Below, piece after piece: positions 1 through 5,702 of a DNA stretch of 5,702 nucleotides (positions are counted from its first letter, which is position 1; each line of letters opens with the position of its first letter). The stretch covers positions 1 through 5,702 of the IMG/VR virus record IMGVR_UViG_2579778529_000002. One strand, 5' to 3'. The position numbers and the translations under genes were made by a program. The notes beneath the pieces are model-generated. The model saw nothing but the letters and a program-made list of their open reading frames with translations, was not told the origin of the DNA and made no database searches. The stretch is from a virus (lineage: Duplodnaviria > Heunggongvirae > Uroviricota > Caudoviricetes).

Positions 1-1
1 G

Positions 2-856
2 GACTTTGAAACCATTCTTGCTGAACGCAAGGCGACACTGATTTCCCTTTACCCGGAAGACCAGCAGGAGGCGGTCGCCCGTACCCTGATGCTGGAATCC
101 GAGCCTCTCGTCAAACTGCTGGAGGAAAATGCTTATCGTGAGCTTATCTGGCGTCAGCGTGTGAATGAGGCCGCACGGGCGGTAATGCTGGCCTGTGCCG
201 CCGGTAATGACCTTGATGTGATTGGTGCCAATTACAACACCACGCGCCTGACTATCACCCCGGCAGATGATTCGACCATCCCGCCGACACCGGCAGTGAT
301 GGAGTCTGACACCGATTATCGTCTGCGTATTCAGCAGGCGTTTGAAGGTTTAAGCGTCGCCGGGTCGGTGGGTGCCTATCAGTATCATGGCCGCAGTGCT
401 GACGGGCGTGTCGCGGATATCTCTGTCACCAGTCCGTCTCCGGCCTGCGTCACCATCTCCGTGCTGTCACGTGAAAATAACGGTGTCGCATCCGAAGACC
501 TGCTGGCCGTGGTGCGTAACGCCATTAATGGCGAGGACGTCAGGCCGGTGGCCGACCGCGTGACCGTGCAGTCTGCCGCCATTGTTGAATACCAGATAAA
601 CGCCACGCTTTACCTTTACCCTGGTCCCGAAAGCGAACCCATTCGCGCTGCCGCCGTGAAAAAACTGGAAGCGTATATCACGGCACAGCACCGGCTGGGG
701 CGCGACATCCGTCTGTCTGCCATTTATGCCGCTTTGCATGTGGAAGGTGTGCAGCGTGTCGAACTGGCTGCACCGCTGGCCGACATCGTGCTCAACAGTA
801 CGCAGGCGTCTTTCTGTACCGAATACCGCGTCGTGACCGGAGGCTCGGATGAGTGA
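2..856 (+). CDS. J: Baseplate assembly protein J (P2 gpJ-like), 5'-truncated by the window edge
   Basis: The reading frame is open from position 2 with no stop before the first ATG at 89, so the gene begins upstream of the window. The translation (DFETILAERKATLISLYPEDQQEAVARTL...GANYNTTRLTITPADD...) matches my recollection of P2 baseplate protein J. Its TGA stop at 854-856 overlaps the start of the next gene (ATGAGTGA), which is typical of phage morphogenetic operons. Confidence 0.9.
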   Translation, partial: DFETILAERKATLISLYPEDQQEAVARTLMLESEPLVKLLEENAYRELIWRQRVNEAARAVMLACAAGNDLDVIGANYNTTRLTITPADDSTIPPTPAVMESDTDYRLRIQQAFEGLSVAGSVGAYQYHGRSADGRVADISVTSPSPACVTISVLSRENNGVASEDLLAVVRNAINGEDVRPVADRVTVQSAAIVEYQINATLYLYPGPESEPIRAAAVKKLEAYITAQHRLGRDIRLSAIYAALHVEGVQRVELAAPLADIVLNSTQASFCTEYRVVTGGSDE

Positions 857-1379
857 TTCGCGACTGCTGCCGACCGGCTCATCACCGCTTGAAGTCGCCG
901 CCGCAAAAGCCTGTGCGGAAATTGAAAAAACACCGGTCAGTATTCGTGAGCTGTGGAACCCGGACACCTGTCCGGCAAATCTGCTGCCGTGGCTGGCGTG
1001 GGCGTTTTCGGTCGACAGGTGGGATGAAAAGTGGCCGGAAGCGACAAAACGCGCCGTTATCCGCGATGCGTATTTCATCCACTGTCATAAAGGCACTATA
1101 GGTGCAATCCGGCGTGTGGTGGAGCCGCTCGGCTATCTCATCAACGTGACGGAGTGGTGGGAAAACAGTGACCCGCCCGGCACCTTCCGGCTTGATATTG
1201 GTGTACTGGAAAGCGGTATCACAGAGGCAATGTATCAGGAAATGGAACGGCTGATTGCTGATGCCAAACCTGCAAGCCGTCACCTTATTGGTCTGAACAT
1301 TACCCGGGACATTCCCGGCTACCTGTTCGCCGGTGGTGTGGCTTATGACGGCGATGTAATTACGGTTTACCCCGGATAA
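849..1379 (+). CDS. I: Baseplate/tail protein I (P2 gpI-like)
   Basis: 176-aa ORF whose start overlaps the J stop by 8 nt. The length matches what I recall for P2 gpI, and it lies in the P2 order J-I-H-G. Stop TAA at 1377-1379. Confidence 0.88.
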   Translation: MSDSRLLPTGSSPLEVAAAKACAEIEKTPVSIRELWNPDTCPANLLPWLAWAFSVDRWDEKWPEATKRAVIRDAYFIHCHKGTIGAIRRVVEPLGYLINVTEWWENSDPPGTFRLDIGVLESGITEAMYQEMERLIADAKPASRHLIGLNITRDIPGYLFAGGVAYDGDVITVYPG

Positions 1380-1389
1380 GTGAGGAATA

Positions 1390-3576
1390 ATGAGCACAAA
1401 ATTCAAAACCGTTATCACCACTGCCGGTGCAGCAAAGCTGGCAGCGGCAACCGCGCCGGGAGGGCGGAAGGTCAACATTACCACGATGGCTGTCGGGGAT
1501 GGCGGTGGTAAATTGCCTGTCCCGGATGCCGGACAGACCGGGCTTATCCATGAAGTCTGGCGACATGCGCTGAACAAAATCAGCCAGGACAAACGAAACA
1601 GTAATTATATTATCGCAGAGCTGGTTATTCCGCCGGAGGTGGGTGGTTTCTGGATGCGTGAGCTTGGCCTGTACGATGATGCGGGAACGTTAATTGCCGT
1701 GGCGAACATGGCCGAAAGTTATAAGCCAGCTCTTGCCGAAGGCTCAGGGCGTTCGCAGACCTGTCGCATGGTCATCATCGTCAGCAGTGTGGCATCGGTG
1801 GAGCTGACCATTGACACCACAACGGTGATGGCGACGCAGGATTACGTTGATGACAAAATTGCAGAGCACGAACAGTCACGACGTCACCCGGACGCCTCGC
1901 TGACCGCAAAAGGTTTTACTCAGTTAAGCAGTGCGACCAACAGCACGTCTGAAACGCTCGCCGCAACACCAAAAGCGGTAAAGGCCGCGTATGACCTTGC
2001 TAACGGGAAATACACTGCACAGGACGCCACCACAGCGAGAAAAGGTCTTGTCCAGCTCAGTAGCGTCACCAACAGCGATTCTGAAATGCTTGCGGCAACG
2101 CCAAAGGCGGTAAAGGCCGCGTATGACCTTGCTAACGGGAAATACACTGCACAGGATGCCACCACGGCGCGAAAAGGGCTTGTCCAGCTCAGTAGCGCCA
2201 CCAACAGTGATTCTGAAACGCTGGCCGCAACACCAAAAGCGGTGAAGTCTGCCTATGACAATGCTGAAAAACGTCTTCAGAAAGATCAGAACGGTGCGGA
2301 TATTCCGGGAAAGGATACCTTCACGAAAAATATCGGTGCCTGTCGTGCTTATAGCGGCGCTTTGAGCACTGAAGCCGGAAACTGGACAACCGCTCAGTTT
2401 ATTGAATGGCTGGATTCCCGCGGTGCATTTAATCATCCGTACTGGATGTGCAAAGGCTCCTGGTCATATGCAAATAACAAAATCATTACGGATACCGGAT
2501 GTGGTGATATCCACCTGGCAGGTTGTGTCGTCGAGGTCATGGGAACTAAATCTGCAATCACTATCCGAGTGACCACGCCGACAACATCAAGTGGTGGCGG
2601 TACAACCAGCGCGCAATTCACTTACATTAATCATGGGGACGGCTACTCCCCCGGCTGGCGTCGTGACTGGAATCGTCAGGGCGACGCAATGACCGGAACG
2701 ATTAATCAGGATGGCGGAAGCCAGAATGCCTATATGTCTACGGCCTTATGTTCAGGCACCAGAGGCGGCAAAAAATATCTCAGAAAGTTTCGTGGTGGAG
2801 AAGGAGACACTATCTGGCATGAAACAGTGCAGGGCGGGGTAATTCGCTGGGCGACAGGAAACTATGACGCTCAGGAAGAATTATCACTCAGCTCCGCTTA
2901 TGGTCTCCGTTCTAGAGGTGAAATTACATCACTCAGTGCTAATGGTCTGCGCATTGCTTATGGCAATTATGGATTCTTTATCAGGAATGATGGTGGCAGC
3001 ACATATTTAATGCTGACGGCCTCTGGTGATAAATTTGGGACATGGAACGGTTTAAGGCCGCTGACTATCAATAACGCTAATGGCGGAGTGTCAATGGGGC
3101 ATGGCCTGAGTGTTACTGGTGATATTGCCTCAAGTACCAAAGTACGTGCCGGTAGCGGGAAAAAGTTCACGGTCAGCAGCAGCAATACATCCACGAAGGA
3201 AGCCGCATTCAATTTGTGGGGAAACTCAAGTCGTCCTGTGGTGGCTGAATTAGGTGATGATGCAGGCTGGCATTTTTACAGTCAGAGAAATACAGATAAC
3301 AGCATCACTTTTGCTGTTAACGGGCAGGTATCACCATCTAACTATAGTAATTTTGATTCACGCTATGTCCGGGATATCCGGCTTGGTGGTGCTGCCACAT
3401 ACAAACCTGCGAACAATGGCATGACATGGACACATCAGGCACCGTCCGGGTGTGTATATTCCGGCATTATTGTTCAGGATACCGGCTCAAACTCTGCCGA
3501 TAACATTGGTGGCGTATATTACAGACCGGTGCAGAAATACATTAACGGGACTTGGTATAACGTGGCGCAGGTATAA
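1390..3576 (+). CDS. H: Tail fibre protein (P2 gpH-like); conserved N-terminal baseplate-attachment region, internal repeats, variable C-terminal receptor-binding region
   Basis: 728-aa ORF with a GAGGA Shine-Dalgarno at 1382-1386, following I. The N-terminus (MSTKFKTVITTAGAAKLAAATAPGG...) resembles the P2/186-family tail-fibre N-terminus. It contains ATPKAVKxAYD-type fibre repeats and a Gly/Ser/Thr/Asn-rich C-terminal half typical of fibre tips. The product is longer than the ~669 aa I recall for P2 H. Confidence 0.9.
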   Translation: MSTKFKTVITTAGAAKLAAATAPGGRKVNITTMAVGDGGGKLPVPDAGQTGLIHEVWRHALNKISQDKRNSNYIIAELVIPPEVGGFWMRELGLYDDAGTLIAVANMAESYKPALAEGSGRSQTCRMVIIVSSVASVELTIDTTTVMATQDYVDDKIAEHEQSRRHPDASLTAKGFTQLSSATNSTSETLAATPKAVKAAYDLANGKYTAQDATTARKGLVQLSSVTNSDSEMLAATPKAVKAAYDLANGKYTAQDATTARKGLVQLSSATNSDSETLAATPKAVKSAYDNAEKRLQKDQNGADIPGKDTFTKNIGACRAYSGALSTEAGNWTTAQFIEWLDSRGAFNHPYWMCKGSWSYANNKIITDTGCGDIHLAGCVVEVMGTKSAITIRVTTPTTSSGGGTTSAQFTYINHGDGYSPGWRRDWNRQGDAMTGTINQDGGSQNAYMSTALCSGTRGGKKYLRKFRGGEGDTIWHETVQGGVIRWATGNYDAQEELSLSSAYGLRSRGEITSLSANGLRIAYGNYGFFIRNDGGSTYLMLTASGDKFGTWNGLRPLTINNANGGVSMGHGLSVTGDIASSTKVRAGSGKKFTVSSSNTSTKEAAFNLWGNSSRPVVAELGDDAGWHFYSQRNTDNSITFAVNGQVSPSNYSNFDSRYVRDIRLGGAATYKPANNGMTWTHQAPSGCVYSGIIVQDTGSNSADNIGGVYYRPVQKYINGTWYNVAQV
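1912..2262 (+). repeat. Three in-frame tandem repeats of 132 bp (44 aa) inside H; units at 1912-2043 and 2044-2175 are near-identical, the third (2176 to about 2262) is partial and diverging
   Basis: Direct reading: GFTQLSSATNSTSETLAATPKAVKAAYDLANGKYTAQDATTARK, then GLVQLSSVTNSDSEMLAATPKAVKAAYDLANGKYTAQDATTARK, then GLVQLSSATNSDSETLAATPKAVKSAYD... The nucleotide sequence is also near-identical between units 1 and 2. Confidence 0.9.
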
Positions 3577-3579
3577 TTT

Positions 3580-4107
3580 ATGCAGCATTTGATAAATATA
3601 ACGGCAGGTAATCCAAAAACGGTTGGACAATATCAATTGACAAAGGACTTTGATGTTGTCTGGTTTTTTTCAGAAGATGGTAAGAACTGGTACGAAGAAC
3701 AAAAGTATTTTGCTGATGACACGATAAAAATAGCGTACGACAAAGATAATATTATCCGCTATGTGGAAAAGGATGTGACAGCTATCAGACCGGATGGATT
3801 AAGTGTTGTTGAAGTGCCGGATATTACTGCTAACCGACGGGCGGATATTTCAGGGGGCTGGATGTTTAAGGACGGCAAAGTGATTAAACGCATTTATACG
3901 GCAGAGGAATTACAGCAGCAGGCAGAAATTCGGAAAGCCAGACTTCTTGCAGATGCTGAATCCGTGATTTTGCCGCTGGAGCGCGCTGTCAGGCTGAATA
4001 TGGCAACAGAGGAGGAGCGCACACGACTGGAAGCATGGGAACGCTACAGCGTTCTGGTCAGTCGTGTGGATCCTGCAAATCCTGAATGGCCGGAAATGCC
4101 GCAATAG
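3580..4107 (+). CDS. G: Tail fibre assembly chaperone (P2 gpG-like)
   Basis: 175-aa ORF starting 3 nt after the H stop (TAA 3574-3576, ATG 3580), so likely translationally coupled. Size and position immediately downstream of the fibre gene match P2 gpG and the tail-fibre-assembly family. Stop TAG at 4105-4107. Confidence 0.85.
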
Positions 4108-4239
4108 ATGTATTAGCTCTGATGTGGGGTTACGCATCTATAGCACAGTGTAGAACCCAATCTGGCGGTCTGCCCTGTGCCAAATGCGGAAATTATGCCC
4201 CAATTCAGTGTTAATAAATGCAAATAATCTACGGTAAAG

Positions 4240-4364
4240 AAAAAGGGATGCTTGTAACTACTTCACATAAACATTATTGTGGTAAAACATACAGTCAAGT
4301 TATCATTTGTAACCTATTGGCATGTATGCTGTATCTATGTTAACTCAAGCGGAAAGTAATTATC
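4240..4364 (+). promoter_or_regulatory. Putative own promoter and RBS region for the cargo ORF
   Basis: AT-rich 257-bp untranslated gap upstream of the ORF. It contains a TGnTAAAAC extended -10-like element (TG at 4280-4281, hexamer 4283-4288), TTGTAA -35-like hexamers at 4252-4257 and 4307-4312, and a weak SD GGAAAG at 4351-4356, 8 nt before the ATG at 4365. The -35 to -10 spacing is not ideal for any pairing I tried, so the exact promoter is not resolved. Confidence 0.3.
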
Positions 4365-5069
4365 ATGGAAAAAATTAAAGCACCTTGCCCATACTGTAAA
4401 GGTGAAAAAAATTGTCTCACAATAGGTCATAAAAAAAGAGAGTGGAGTAAAAATGATGGGGATAACTATTTTTGGGCTGAGAGTGAATATAATTTATTAG
4501 AGTGTATGGGGTGTGATGGAATATTTACATATATAAAGTCCCGTCACAGTGAAGATTACGACATAGAAAGGGATGGCTCGGGGCATGATTTTATGATATA
4601 TAACGAGCATATATCAATATATCCTGCTCAAGAACAGGATGAAATTAGACCTGATTGGTTTGGTGAGGTGCTAAGCAAAGATTATCAGCTATATGTAATA
4701 ATGAACGAAATGTATATCGCATTTCAAAATAAATCATTCATTTTGGCGGCGATTGGGCTTAGAACTATTTTTGACAGAACTGTTGAGGTTCTGGATATTC
4801 ACCCCGGGCATACATTAAGCCAGAAAGTTGATATTCTCAAAGATGAAGGTTTTATCGGGGAAAAAGAAAAAGAGCAACTTAAAATTGTAACTGAAGCTGG
4901 CAACTCAGCTGCACATAGGGCATGGGCACCGAGCGAAGATGAATTTAAATCGCTTTTGGCTGTTATAGAAAGCTTTGTAATGCGAACAATACTAAAAGAT
5001 AATAACATTTTTAAAATCGTAGAAAAACTACCAGAAAAACACTCAAGGCCACCAAAAAAACAAGAATAA
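4365..5069 (+). CDS. Hypothetical protein, 234 aa: N-terminal CxxC...CxxC zinc-ribbon-like module plus a C-terminal domain of unknown function; candidate anti-phage defence / lysogenic-conversion protein (possibly a Z/fun-like gene)
   Basis: Only long ORF in the AT-rich segment, with uninterrupted + strand coding and stop TAA at 5067-5069. Cys8-x2-Cys11 and Cys47-x2-Cys50 are arranged like a zinc ribbon. The C-terminal part has a GNSAAH motif (about residues 179-184) followed by a region of helix-favouring composition. The codon usage is clearly foreign to the flanking phage genes. I do not recognise the family with certainty. Confidence 0.7.
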   Translation: MEKIKAPCPYCKGEKNCLTIGHKKREWSKNDGDNYFWAESEYNLLECMGCDGIFTYIKSRHSEDYDIERDGSGHDFMIYNEHISIYPAQEQDEIRPDWFGEVLSKDYQLYVIMNEMYIAFQNKSFILAAIGLRTIFDRTVEVLDIHPGHTLSQKVDILKDEGFIGEKEKEQLKIVTEAGNSAAHRAWAPSEDEFKSLLAVIESFVMRTILKDNNIFKIVEKLPEKHSRPPKKQE

Positions 5070-5315
5070 TGTACCTAAATATAAACAGAGCTAAGAGATT
5101 ATGTCTTGGCTCTGGTTAATCTCCAGTAGTGCATGATTTTTGCAATGACCTGACTGAACATTTAAACGAGGAAAATATCCCATATTTGCTTTTCACTGTG
5201 AGTTCAGCCTGTGGGTGTAACACTGGTTAAAACGCTCTGCGAGTGATTCATTGTCTAGCGTTCTGGCTATATTAATTTTCAGTTGGAAACTGAGTAAGTA
5301 CAGATAAAGACAGGC

Positions 5316-5339
5316 AGGCGGATTACCCGCCTTTTCTTT
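5316..5339 (+). terminator. Putative Rho-independent terminator
   Basis: AGGCGG (5316-5321) pairs perfectly with CCGCCT (5327-5332) around a 5-nt loop ATTAC, followed directly by the T-tract TTTTCTTT (5332-5339). It lies downstream of the cargo ORF and upstream of FI. Confidence 0.5.
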
Positions 5340-5435
5340 GTCTGTTGTTTCATCCACTGACCAGCCAGGTCAAATAGCGTCTCATGCACTACCCAACAGA
5401 AAATAGTTGCACCCATTAACCACGGAGTTAAACGG
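5339..5435 (+). promoter_or_regulatory. Probable late-promoter region and RBS of the FI operon (P2 PF-equivalent)
   Basis: By synteny the FI operon promoter should lie here. There is an imperfect TGT-N12-cCA element (5339-5356) resembling the TGT-N12-ACA dyad of Ogr-dependent P2 late promoters, and a GGAG Shine-Dalgarno at 5424-5427, 8 nt before the FI ATG. No exact consensus match was found. Confidence 0.3.
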
Positions 5436-5702
5436 ATGAGCGACTATCATCATGGCGTGCAGGTGCTGGAGATTAACGACGGCACCCGCGTCATTTCCAC
5501 CGTATCCACGGCCATTGTCGGCATGGTTTGCACGGCCAGCGATGCGGATGCGGAAACCTTCCCCCTCAATAAACCTGTGCTGATCACCAATGTGCAGAGC
5601 GCAATTGCAAAGGCCGGTAAAAAAGGCACGCTGGCGGCGTCGTTGCAGGCCATCGCTGACCAGTCAAAACCGGTCACCGTAGTCGTGCGTGTGGAAGACG
5701 GC
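5436..5702 (+). CDS. FI: Tail sheath protein (P2 gpFI-like), 5' portion; continues beyond the window
   Basis: ATG at 5436 preceded by GGAG. The frame is open to the window end (89 codons). The translation [89 protein letters not shown] matches my recollection of the P2 tail sheath N-terminus. It is absent from the supplied ORF track only because no stop falls inside the window. Confidence 0.88.

What the first reader, a model, noticed from the sequence alone, without database searches (positions are those of the whole stretch)
4108..5340. Sharp compositional island with precise boundaries at the G stop and at the terminator upstream of FI
GC content drops abruptly right after the G stop codon and stays low through the cargo ORF and roughly 250 nt of downstream untranslated sequence, then rises again at the hairpin and FI start. 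Such precise module boundaries between conserved structural genes are the signature of a recombinational swap site (moron insertion), and they delimit what was horizontally acquired. The island carries its own apparent promoter and terminator, consistent with an autonomously expressed unit.
Basis: partly seen in the sequence, partly recalled or inferred. Interest (0 to 1): 0.55.

Follow-up and report, generated by a model that had tools for sequence, protein, structure and literature searches.

The report
Defence-gene cassette in P2 prophage hotspot
The low-GC stretch between the tail genes G and FI of this P2-like E. coli prophage is a real, horizontally acquired one-gene cassette sitting in the phage's already known "Z/fun" cargo hotspot, and it encodes an uncharacterised zinc-ribbon + HEPN (DUF4145) protein that most likely is an anti-phage RNase.

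Summary
Sequence shared with other P2-like phages runs about 70-90 nt past the G stop, to 4179-4196. It resumes at about 5256, some 60 nt before the terminator. The foreign segment is therefore about 4192-5250.

The terminator (5316-5332) and the late promoter region belong to the phage backbone, and no consensus promoter was found upstream of the cargo gene. The site is the known second defence hotspot of P2-like phages, the Z/fun locus.

An 82%-identical copy, non-coding flanks included, lies in lambdoid prophages beside an anti-phage dGTPase.

Unexpectedly, cargo at this hotspot and in lambdoid prophages is bracketed by two inverted 24-nt hairpin elements that form cassette arrays. The array junction is in about 19% of complete E. 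coli genomes and is unannotated.

The parts
1..856 (+). Baseplate gene J, cut by the start of the window. Conserved P2 backbone.
   Evidence: Pfam Baseplate_J, E=5e-24. RefSeq annotation of the near-identical prophage.
849..1379 (+). Tail gene I. Backbone.
   Evidence: Pfam Tail_P2_I, E=6e-56.
1390..3576 (+). Tail fibre gene H. Mosaic: GC falls from 0.54 to 0.48 along the gene.
   Evidence: Pfam Phage_tail_fib, three Phage_fiber_2 repeats, and Gp34_trimer. GC by segment.
3580..4107 (+). Tail fibre assembly gene G. It is 92% identical in DNA to phage 10W (94% in protein by tblastn) and about 75-79% identical in DNA to P2 and the other phages compared. Its N-terminal half is low in GC (0.38).
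   Evidence: Pfam Caudo_TAP, E=1e-33. blastn. GC by segment.
4108..4167 (+). Conserved post-G leader. This is backbone, not cargo.
   Evidence: It aligns with P2, P2_AC1, 10W, pro147 and phage 899. GC of 4108-4196 is 0.47.
4168..4191 (+). A-type hairpin element (GTCTGC-CCTGTGCCAAAT-GCGGAA). It marks the left border of the cassette.
   Evidence: 19 of 24 matches to the consensus; the best of 2000 shuffles reached 16. In P2-like loci the element sits at a fixed offset of about 53-65 nt after G. The same GTCTGC/GCGGAA variant occurs in L013.
4192..4364 (+). AT-rich 5' region of the cassette (GC 0.33). A promoter is presumed here but not demonstrated; the weak candidate is TTGGCA-17-TTAACT at 4317-4345.
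   Evidence: 78% identical to the same region of the lambdoid copy. No consensus promoter. The 41-aa ORF at 4218-4343 is not conserved: the lambdoid copy has ATG followed directly by TAG.
4365..5069 (+). Cargo gene: a 234-aa protein with a Cys4 zinc-ribbon domain and a HEPN (DUF4145) domain. Candidate anti-phage RNase.
5086..5114 (+). Hairpin with an 11-bp stem, 17 nt after the stop codon, with no U-tract. Possibly a 3' stabiliser. It is not well conserved in the lambdoid copy.
   Evidence: Fold of 5070-5210. Alignment with L002.
5070..5250 (+). 3' untranslated tail of the cassette. Homology to the lambdoid copy runs to 5167. No recognisable B-type hairpin survives here.
   Evidence: blastn. 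Best B-type match is 13 of 24, which is no better than chance.
5256..5435 (+). Conserved backbone upstream of FI: terminator plus the late promoter P_F region.
   Evidence: Homology resumes at 5256 in P2, 10W, pro147 and phage 899. About 800 E. coli genomes share only this part. P2's annotated activator site and transcription start lie in the aligned stretch.
5300..5345 (.). Bidirectional intrinsic terminator. Core stem 5316-5332 (GGCGG/CCGCC) with an A-tract and a T-tract. It belongs to the backbone.
   Evidence: Terminator scan on both strands. dG -22.2 kcal/mol, z = -5.0. Conserved in all seven phages compared, including the cargo-less P37.
5436..5702 (+). Tail sheath gene FI, cut by the end of the window. 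The start codon is at 5436.
   Evidence: RefSeq annotation of the matching prophage. Sequence.

Best explanation
Window 4192-5250 is a foreign, low-GC, single-gene cassette in the G-FI (Z/fun) cargo hotspot of a P2-like prophage of E. coli.

Acquisition. The cassette was exchanged by recombination. The left crossover lies at or next to a conserved 24-nt hairpin element (4168-4191) that marks the left edge of cargo in P2-like phages generally. The right crossover lies at about 5250-5256, just upstream of the backbone terminator and late promoter. The same cassette, with its non-coding flanks, also circulates in lambdoid prophages, so the unit that moves is the whole cassette and not just the gene.

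Function. The gene encodes a protein with an N-terminal Cys4 zinc-ribbon domain joined by a conserved Pro/Trp linker to a C-terminal HEPN domain of the DUF4145 type. The most likely function is anti-phage defence for the lysogen. By analogy with RAZR (PD-T7-4), the zinc-ribbon domain would sense a protein of an infecting phage, and the HEPN domain would then cut RNA and abort the infection.

Shown here: the island, its borders, its foreignness, the fold and domain architecture, purifying selection, and a mobile-element and defence-neighbour context.

Inferred: expression from its own promoter or by read-through from the late operon, RNase activity, the defence phenotype, the trigger, and the recombination mechanism.
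For: Composition and codon usage.

Breakpoints against P2, P37, P2_AC1, 10W, pro147 and phage 899.

Distribution: 1 of 5426 complete E. coli genomes carries the island; about 12 carry an 82% copy in lambdoid prophages next to an 'anti-phage deoxyguanosine triphosphatase'; about 800 share only the backbone. The exact protein is always found between G and FI in E. coli draft assemblies.

Published context: the locus is a published defence hotspot. Vassallo et al. 2022 (PMC9519451) describe a 'second defence-enriched locus' holding fun and three of their validated systems. The iLund4u preprint recovers it as the Z/fun hotspot.

Protein:
- Pfam DUF4145 and PHROG 1305.
- AF2 pLDDT 93.7.
- Four invariant Cys, plus R133, K154, H184 and R185, across 231 homologues.
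- Third-position divergence of 75% identity against 90 and 92% at positions 1 and 2.
- Homologues appear as single accessory genes in other prophage positions and in an ICE-like region.

Analogy: RAZR = PD-T7-4 is a zinc-finger domain plus a DUF4145 HEPN RNase, works by abortive infection, and its zinc-finger domain sets trigger specificity (PMC13017515).
Against: - No defence phenotype has been measured for this protein or, as far as I could establish, for any member of its family.
- No PADLOC model, PD-T7-4 included, matches the protein or 61 homologues.
- No sequence or profile hit in the PDB. Foldseek gave nothing significant.
- The arginine of the DUF4145 'R..GN.AAH' motif is R146 in RAZR and is essential there. 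In this family that position is T/V/I/A and never R, so the catalytic chemistry may differ or be absent.
- No consensus promoter was found.
- The right-hand hairpin element is missing in the window, so the cassette is not neatly bracketed here.
- tblastn finds no homologue in 50,697 GenBank phage records.
Confidence: 0.7

Rival explanations
1. The cargo is an accessory gene but not an anti-phage RNase. It could be a HEPN-fold protein that has lost catalysis and acts as a regulator or nucleic-acid binder, a toxin-like addiction factor, or a counter-defence or anti-plasmid factor that benefits the phage.
For: The canonical HEPN arginine is absent in all 231 homologues. No defence HMM matches. 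DUF4145 domains also occur in non-RNase settings and in an anti-plasmid system, Ishtar. About 20% of DUF4145 members lack the Rx4-6H motif (PMC3710099).
Against: H184, R185, R133 and K154 are invariant or nearly so, which suggests a preserved active site. The architecture is the same as the validated defence proteins RAZR and DS-38. The gene sits in a validated defence hotspot and, in lambdoid prophages, beside an anti-phage dGTPase.
Confidence: 0.2
2. The cassette arrived through a dedicated site-specific or transposition-like mechanism acting on the A/B hairpin elements, rather than by homologous recombination between conserved flanks during co-infection.
For: - Two discrete hairpin types follow a strict grammar. 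A+...B- accounts for 68 of 97 distant neighbour pairs, and all 19 adjacent pairs are B-/A+ (17 with a typed A, 2 with an untyped partner). Mixed loop types are 0 of 150.
- The same elements bracket cargo in unrelated backbones: P2-like, lambdoid, and contigs with neither marker set.
- The lambdoid DUF4145 copy is a canonical cassette with both elements.
- A roughly 200-aa tyrosine recombinase lies inside a few arrays.
Against: - No recombinase is consistently linked: it appears in about 5 of 142 loci.
- The window's right junction lies outside any hairpin element.
- No inversion was seen among 55 homologous cassette pairs.
- Stem changes are mostly uncompensated.
- 24-40 nt of shared sequence could simply serve phage Red/Erf-type or RecA recombination. 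Rousset et al. 2022 also propose homologous exchange for P2 hotspots.
Confidence: 0.3
3. The low-GC stretch is ancestral AT-rich intergenic or regulatory DNA of the phage and not a horizontal acquisition.
For: The flanking backbone is itself compositionally uneven: the start of G is 0.38 and 5256-5436 is 0.44.
Against: The segment holds a 234-aa ORF under purifying selection. It is absent from every other P2-like phage compared, which carry unrelated sequence at the same place. It is present at 82% identity in lambdoid prophages.
Confidence: 0.02

Closest known systems
P2 Z/fun locus: the second defence hotspot of P2-like phages, between tail fibre assembly gene G and sheath gene FI
   Same: Same position and same conserved flanks. 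The cargo is low in GC and variable. In P2 itself, fun(Z) is bracketed by the same A (L004 1336-1359) and B (L004 3433-3456) elements. The locus is described as defence-enriched by Vassallo et al. 2022 and in the iLund4u preprint.
   Different: The cargo here is unrelated to fun(Z): it is a 234-aa zinc-ribbon-HEPN protein on the + strand, not a 528-aa protein on the - strand. In P2 the V-operon terminator lies inside the cassette. Here the first terminator is the backbone one at 5316-5332.
RAZR (PD-T7-4), the ring-activated zinc-finger RNase (Zhang et al., Nature 2026, PMC13017515)
   Same: A single protein with an N-terminal Cys4 zinc ribbon, a conserved linker and a C-terminal DUF4145/HEPN domain. 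It is carried on mobile elements. The H of the GNxAAH motif is conserved (H184 here, H154 in RAZR).
   Different: No detectable sequence relationship by the PADLOC HMMs or by PDB sequence or profile searches. The zinc-ribbon domain here is longer, about 86 aa against about 65. The residue eight positions before the His is T/V/I/A and not the essential Arg (R146 in RAZR). The trigger, oligomeric state and activity are unknown. I could not obtain the RAZR sequence for a direct alignment.
DS-38 (DefensePredictor preprint, bioRxiv 10.1101/2025.01.08.631726)
   Same: It is described as a validated E. coli defence protein with HEPN and zinc-finger domains. Only its HEPN domain aligns with PD-T7-4. 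That is exactly the relationship seen here.
   Different: The DS-38 sequence and accession are not available in the held text, so identity or homology to this protein is untested.
Modular cassette systems bracketed by inverted short sites: pdif modules of Acinetobacter plasmids, BIME/REP pairs, integron attC arrays (from my own knowledge, not tested against sequence models)
   Same: The grammar is similar: units bracketed by inversely oriented short palindromic sites, and tandem arrays joined by a composite junction of about 66 nt (B', a 16-19 nt linker, then A).
   Different: The sequences bear no evident resemblance, by eye, to dif, REP or attC core sites. No IntI, Xer or RAYT gene is linked. 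No Rfam family matches. The mechanism is unknown.

Membership tests
Cargo ('moron') of the P2-like G-FI (Z/fun) hotspot | Lies between tail fibre assembly gene G and tail sheath gene FI of a P2-like phage | tested here: met
   Pfam assignments for J, I, H and G. RefSeq annotation of the matching prophage. Alignment to P2 NC_001895.
Cargo ('moron') of the P2-like G-FI (Z/fun) hotspot | Flanks are conserved among relatives while the content between them differs | tested here: met
   Homology ends at 4179-4196 and resumes at 5256 in five phages that carry different cargo.
Cargo ('moron') of the P2-like G-FI (Z/fun) hotspot | Composition atypical for the backbone | tested here: met
   GC 0.355 against 0.523, z = -10.9. 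GC3 is 0.28.
Cargo ('moron') of the P2-like G-FI (Z/fun) hotspot | Own promoter and own terminator (the classical moron definition) | tested here: inconclusive
   No consensus promoter upstream of the ORF. The only intrinsic terminator is backbone sequence shared by all relatives. Transcription was not measured.
HEPN superfamily, DUF4145 family (PF13643) | Match to the Pfam model above its gathering score | tested here: met
   51.5 bits against a cut-off of 23.1, residues 115-201.
HEPN superfamily, DUF4145 family (PF13643) | Helical-bundle HEPN fold | tested here: met
HEPN superfamily, DUF4145 family (PF13643) | Catalytic Rx4-6H motif (Rx7H in DUF4145/RAZR) | tested here: not met
   H184 is invariant (231 of 231). 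No Arg occurs 4-8 residues upstream: position 176 is T/V/I/A. R185, R133 and K154 are invariant or nearly so and may substitute.
RAZR / PD-T7-4 | Architecture of an N-terminal Cys4 zinc ribbon plus a C-terminal DUF4145 HEPN domain in one protein of about 220 aa | tested here: met
   C8, C11, C47 and C50 are invariant. Beta-rich domain at 1-86 and HEPN domain at 99-221. The RAZR description comes from PMC13017515.
RAZR / PD-T7-4 | Sequence homology detectable with the family's HMM or with the solved chains | tested here: not met
RAZR / PD-T7-4 | Essential catalytic pair R146/H154 | tested here: not met
   By motif spacing (G at -5, N at -4, H at 0), R146 corresponds to T176 here. This is an inference from the motif, not from a direct alignment.
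RAZR / PD-T7-4 | Activation by assembly around ring-shaped phage proteins; non-specific ssRNA cleavage; abortive infection | not testable with these tools
   Needs phage challenge, escape mutants and biochemistry.
DS-38 (DefensePredictor) | Sequence identity or homology to the validated DS-38 protein | not testable with these tools
   No supplementary files are held. Only the domain description could be read.
A/B hairpin-bracketed cassette (described here) | A-type element at the left border and an inverted B-type element at the right border | tested here: inconclusive
   The A-type element is present at 4168-4191 (19 of 24; p < 1/2000). The B-type element is not recognisable (13 of 24, chance level). 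The 82% lambdoid copy has both: A with 5 mismatches, B with 1 mismatch.

The most novel reading that the evidence does not exclude
Enterobacterial prophages may share a previously unannotated cassette system. P2-like, lambdoid and some other chromosomal island contexts are involved.

Low-GC accessory or defence genes are packaged between two inverted 24-nt hairpin elements:
- A: GTCCGC-TnTGTGCCAnnA-GCGGAC
- B: GTCCGC-TnTGAGCGAnnA-GCGGAC

These units are strung into arrays through a conserved junction of about 66 nt (B', linker, A). They move as units between unrelated phage backbones.

The island in this window would be one such cassette, with its right-hand element eroded. If a dedicated recombination mechanism acts on these elements, this would be an integron-like or pdif-like exchange system for phage defence cargo in E. 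coli.

It may already have been described in part by Nilsson et al. 2004 (Mol Biol Evol 21:1), which I could not read.
Probability: 0.3. Interest if true: 0.75.

Novelty: new member of a known kind. Interest (0 to 1): 0.4.

Why it matters
The island itself is an ordinary example of a well-documented phenomenon: cargo swapping at the Z/fun hotspot of P2-like phages.

Two things give it some value.

First, the cargo belongs to a large family of zinc-ribbon-HEPN proteins whose members carry only DUF4145 or 'hypothetical protein' names in every source checked. The family has 262 clusters at 50% identity with E below 1e-30. It shares the architecture of the RAZR defence RNase but lacks the arginine RAZR needs. 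It is therefore a cheap, well-defined candidate for a new defence protein with a different sensor domain and possibly a different active site.

Second, mapping the exact borders exposed conserved hairpin elements that bracket cargo in both P2-like and lambdoid prophages. If these elements are functional, they would explain how defence genes are shuffled between unrelated phages. They would also give a sequence handle for finding cargo cassettes directly.

Tried and rejected
2. PADLOC and NCBIfam gave no family.
3. Rfam on 3900-5702 at E up to 1 gave no RNA family.
4. tblastn of the cargo against 50,697 GenBank phage records found nothing.
5. I tried to read Nilsson et al. 2004 and Odegrip et al. 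2006, to see whether the flanking repeats are already described. Neither is held, and papers citing them gave no details.
6. I looked for a B-type hairpin at the right end of the window's cassette. The best match is at chance level, so I dropped the claim that this cassette is bracketed on both sides.
7. I tested whether the inverted A/B elements act as an inversion switch. All 55 homologous cassette pairs have the same orientation relative to A to B, and none is opposite. Rejected.
8. I tested whether a small tyrosine recombinase travels with the arrays. It is in only about 5 of 142 loci, so no link is established.
9. Stem covariation in the hairpins: 15 double changes, 8 of which keep pairing, and 66 of 99 single changes break pairing. 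This does not decide between an RNA or DNA structure and a protein-binding site.
10. The small ORFs 4086-4214 and 4218-4343 have no Pfam hit. The second is interrupted in the lambdoid copy. I treat neither as a gene.
11. A TGT-N12-ACA Ogr-type site was not found by regex in 5251-5440. The P_F assignment rests only on alignment to P2's annotated features.
12. The post-G leader 4108-4200 does not fold better than shuffles (z = -1.3), so I make no claim of a terminator there.
Full report
WHAT THE WINDOW IS

The window is the tail module of a P2-like prophage. Pfam identifies baseplate J (ORF listed from 89 to 856; the gene itself starts before the window), tail protein I (849-1379), tail fibre H (1390-3576) and tail fibre assembly protein G (3580-4107). 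The sheath gene FI starts at 5436.

Megablast places the island region at 100% identity in a prophage of E. coli O121 strain 201805972. That prophage has the complete P2 gene order. The window as a whole is 99.6% identical to it over 3501-5702, and the two differ in the H repeat number (728 against 772 aa).

THE OBSERVATION

The low-GC island is real.
- A sliding profile falls from about 0.53-0.55 to 0.31-0.39 between about 4200 and 5200, and is back above 0.5 after 5300.
- A two-change-point likelihood fit puts the island at 4190-5308: GC 0.353 against 0.533 and 0.548, with a log-likelihood gain of 30.9. Support intervals are 4175-4214 and 5289-5453.
- Against the rest of the window the deficit is about 11 standard deviations.
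- Cargo GC3 is 0.28 against 0.63 in J and 0.58 in I. Rare AGA/AGG/ATA/CTA codons run at 9.0 per 100 codons against 1.3.

Two details in the finding are wrong. First, GC does not drop 'right after the G stop'. The 89 nt after the stop are 0.47 GC, and most of that stretch (to 4179-4196) is conserved. Second, the right edge is gradual, not sharp.

There is also an independent dip to 0.38 at the H/G junction (about 3500-3850). This matches the known swapping of tail-fibre modules.

EXACT BREAKPOINTS

I compared the window with P2 and five other P2-like phages.

Left side. Homology continues past the G stop to 4179-4196 in P2, P2_AC1, 10W, pro147 and phage 899.

Right side. Homology resumes at 5256 in four of them and at 5265 in P2_AC1.

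Between these points each phage carries something different:
- P2: fun(Z)
- 10W: a hypothetical protein plus a putative phosphatase (the related phage P24C9 is annotated with NUDIX and HAD-superfamily hydrolases there)
- pro147: a metal-binding-domain protein
- phage 899: two unknown genes
- P2_AC1: one unknown gene

Yersinia phage P37 has no cargo. Its G stop is fused almost directly to the terminator (window 4106 joined to 5304), so it is a deletion derivative and not a pristine empty site.

Among 5426 complete E. coli genomes, one has the whole island. About 800 share only window 5251/5256-5400.

The foreign segment is therefore about 4192-5250, not 4108-5340.

PROMOTER AND TERMINATOR

The hairpin at 5316-5332 extends to 5300-5345 (dG -22.2 kcal/mol, z = -5.0). 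It has an A-tract and a T-tract and scores as a terminator on both strands. It lies on conserved backbone and is present in all seven phages, including the cargo-less P37. It is the phage's own terminator ahead of the late promoter P_F, not part of the cargo.

P2's annotated activator-binding site and F-operon start fall in the aligned stretch downstream.

The consensus scan finds no + strand promoter between 4192 and 4364. By eye there is only a weak TTGGCA-17-TTAACT at 4317-4345.

No terminator is predicted between G and the cargo, and the post-G leader does not fold better than shuffled sequence. The cargo is co-oriented with the late V-W-J-I-H-G operon. Read-through transcription is therefore plausible, and 'autonomously expressed unit' is not established.

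THE CARGO PROTEIN

The ORF 4365-5069 encodes 234 aa with a Pfam DUF4145 match (E = 1e-13, residues 115-201) and a PHROG 1305 match. DUF4145 is a HEPN-superfamily family, and its known fusion partners include zinc ribbons (PMC3710099).

. Foldseek found nothing significant.

Exhaustive HMM search finds 2589 relatives at E up to 1e-3, and 262 clusters at E up to 1e-30, nearly all about 230 aa with the same architecture.

Across 231 of them, C8, C11, C47 and C50 are conserved wherever the N-terminus is present. R133, K154, H184, R185, W187 and P189 are invariant or nearly so.

Comparison with the 82% lambdoid copy shows identities of 90, 92 and 75% at codon positions 1, 2 and 3, so the gene is real and under purifying selection.

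RELATION TO KNOWN DEFENCE PROTEINS

The closest characterised protein is RAZR (PD-T7-4). It has a Cys4 zinc-ribbon domain, a conserved linker and a DUF4145 HEPN RNase. It works by abortive infection and is activated by assembling around ring-shaped phage proteins. Its zinc-finger domain sets specificity, and R146 and H154 are essential (PMC13017515).

The protein here has that architecture, but I cannot file it as a RAZR family member.
- No PADLOC model hits it or 61 homologues.
- No PDB sequence or profile search hits anything.
- In the 'GNxAAH' motif the residue eight positions before the His corresponds to R146 by spacing. Here it is T/V/I/A in all 231 homologues.

A preprint describes a validated E. 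coli system, DS-38, with HEPN and zinc-finger domains of which only the HEPN part aligns with PD-T7-4.

The mechanism I commit to is a phage-triggered HEPN RNase giving abortive infection, with the zinc-ribbon domain as sensor. It rests on analogy plus context. I put about 0.65 on a defence role and about 0.35 on a RAZR-like mechanism.

CONTEXT EVIDENCE

The G-FI locus is a published defence hotspot. Vassallo et al. found three validated systems there besides fun, and the iLund4u preprint recovers it as the Z/fun hotspot.

The exact protein occurs in many E. coli draft assemblies and, in the six places shown of the 24 contigs read, is always between G and FI.

Homologues at 42-81% identity occur as single accessory genes in other places:
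- next to an integrase at the edge of a Citrobacter prophage
- between gpS and gpV of a Pseudomonas P2-like prophage
- in an ICE-like region of Duffyella

.

About 12 E. coli genomes carry an 82%-identical copy of window 4172-5167, including about 190 nt upstream and about 100 nt downstream of the ORF. These copies lie in lambdoid prophages between the DUF977 gene and hok, in a run of cargo that includes an annotated anti-phage dGTPase. The unit that moves is therefore the cassette with its untranslated flanks.

AN UNEXPECTED FEATURE OF THE BORDERS

In P2-like phages the cargo is bracketed by imperfect inverted repeats of 33-42 nt (repeat finder: 42 nt at 76% in 10W; 36 nt at 81% in phage 899). 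The core of each repeat is a 24-nt palindromic element, GTCCGC-N12-GCGGAC.

By marker genes, 34 of these are P2-like, 46 are lambdoid, and 40 have neither set of marker genes nearby.

The elements come in two discrete loop types: A (TGTGCC) and B (TGAGCG). Of 150 loop-anchored elements, 73 are A and 77 are B, and none is mixed.

Their arrangement follows a grammar.
- 68 of 97 distant neighbour pairs are A+ ... B-.
- All 19 adjacent pairs (17 with a typed A, 2 with an untyped partner) are B- followed by A+ across a 0-19 nt linker. The linker is usually 16-18 nt and is partly conserved.

This defines 65 distinct cassettes of 0.6-5.8 kb with a median GC of 0.387. Their cargo includes a CAP12/Pycsar-type TIR protein, a GNAT acetyltransferase, a SLATT plus reverse transcriptase pair, and a CoiA-like nuclease; in the lambdoid array of L002 a dGTPase gene lies between two A-type elements.

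In P2-like loci, A sits about 53-65 nt after G and B about 216 nt before FI. P2's own fun(Z) is bracketed in this way.

The composite junction occurs at 80% coverage or more in 1041 of 5426 complete E. coli genomes. No annotation lay under the match in any of the 25 records listed.

Homologous cassettes always keep the same orientation relative to A to B (55 pairs the same, 0 opposite), so the elements are not an inversion switch. Stem covariation is weak. A roughly 200-aa tyrosine recombinase lies in a few arrays but is not generally linked.

In the window itself only the A element survives (4168-4191; 19 of 24 matches, beyond all 2000 shuffles). The B element is not recognisable, and the right junction falls in backbone sequence just beyond where B would be. 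The lambdoid copy has both elements and is preceded by a junction of B', an 18-nt linker and A.

I found no description of these elements in the papers I could search. Nilsson et al. 2004, whose title points to site-specific recombination at these loci, could not be read. Novelty is therefore uncertain.

VERDICT

The finding is a correct recognition of an ordinary, well-documented phenomenon: cargo at the P2 Z/fun hotspot. The borders are misplaced by about 60-90 nt on each side, and the claim of an own promoter and terminator is unsupported.

The cargo is an uncharacterised member of a large zinc-ribbon-HEPN family that resembles RAZR in architecture but differs at a catalytic position.

The most novel reading the evidence allows is that the hairpin-bracketed cassettes form a shared cargo-exchange system of enterobacterial prophages.

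Noticed in passing
window 4168-4191; L004 1336-1359 and 3433-3456; L007 5221-5262 and 6687-6728; L009 5203-5238, 6914-6983 and 8390-8425; L002 1212, 2973, 4073, 5955, 5997 and 7005; loci L010-L129: Two discrete 24-nt palindromic elements bracket low-GC cargo cassettes in inverted orientation. They are A (GTCCGC-TnTGTGCCAnnA-GCGGAC) and B (GTCCGC-TnTGAGCGAnnA-GCGGAC). They join cassettes into arrays through a B'-linker-A junction of about 66 nt. This is seen in P2-like prophages, lambdoid prophages and other contexts. The junction is in 1041 of 5426 complete E. coli genomes, with no annotation under the match in the records listed.
   Followed up: partly
L019 9378-9986; L141 8050-8652; L142 3342-3944; L125 5396-6001: A small tyrosine recombinase of about 200 aa (Pfam Phage_integrase; annotated 'site-specific integrase') lies inside some hairpin-bracketed arrays. 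It occurs both in a Qin/Rac-like lambdoid prophage and in a chromosomal island next to a dynamin-family gene. It is present in only about 5 of 142 loci, so no link to the elements is established.
   Followed up: partly
window 3500-3850: There is a second compositional dip (GC 0.38) across the end of H and the start of G. G is 92% identical in DNA to phage 10W but only about 75-79% identical to P2 and the other phages compared. This is consistent with a separate swap of the tail-fibre and chaperone host-range module.
   Followed up: partly
window 1390-3576 (H): H carries three Phage_fiber_2 repeats. Otherwise near-identical prophages have H alleles of 728 or 772 aa, which suggests variation in repeat copy number in the tail fibre.
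   Followed up: no
window 4365-5069, protein residues 176-185: The DUF4145 motif reads T-E-A-G-N-S-A-A-H-R. The position that is the essential Arg in RAZR (by motif spacing) is T/V/I/A in all 231 homologues. R185 (the residue after the His), R133 and K154 are invariant or nearly so. This points to a possibly rearranged HEPN active site.
   Followed up: partly
window 5086-5114: A hairpin with an 11-bp stem lies 17 nt after the cargo stop codon and has no U-tract. Two stem pairs are broken in the 82% lambdoid copy, so its significance is doubtful.
   Followed up: partly
window 5193-5357 and 5279-5416 (- strand); L007 6755-6892; L008 5527-5643: Short minus-strand ORFs overlap the backbone terminator and P_F region. 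Some related phage records annotate them as hypothetical proteins (38-45 aa). They are probably annotation artefacts.
   Followed up: no
L005 (Yersinia phage P37) 5580-5720: P37 has only about 133 nt between G and FI. It lacks the post-G leader, both hairpin elements and about 50 nt of right-hand backbone. It is a deletion derivative of the hotspot and not an intact empty site.
   Followed up: partly
L001 3413-4589 (same prophage, outside the window): The other P2 hotspot lies between the replication endonuclease and the portal gene. In this prophage it carries an ImmA/IrrE-family metallopeptidase and a hypothetical protein. No A/B hairpin element was found there at up to 5 mismatches.
   Followed up: no
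L002 7400-7555; L141 10721-10876: In lambdoid prophages the cassette arrays end next to a hok/gef (hokD) type I toxin gene. The DUF4145 cassette is the last unit before it.
   Followed up: no
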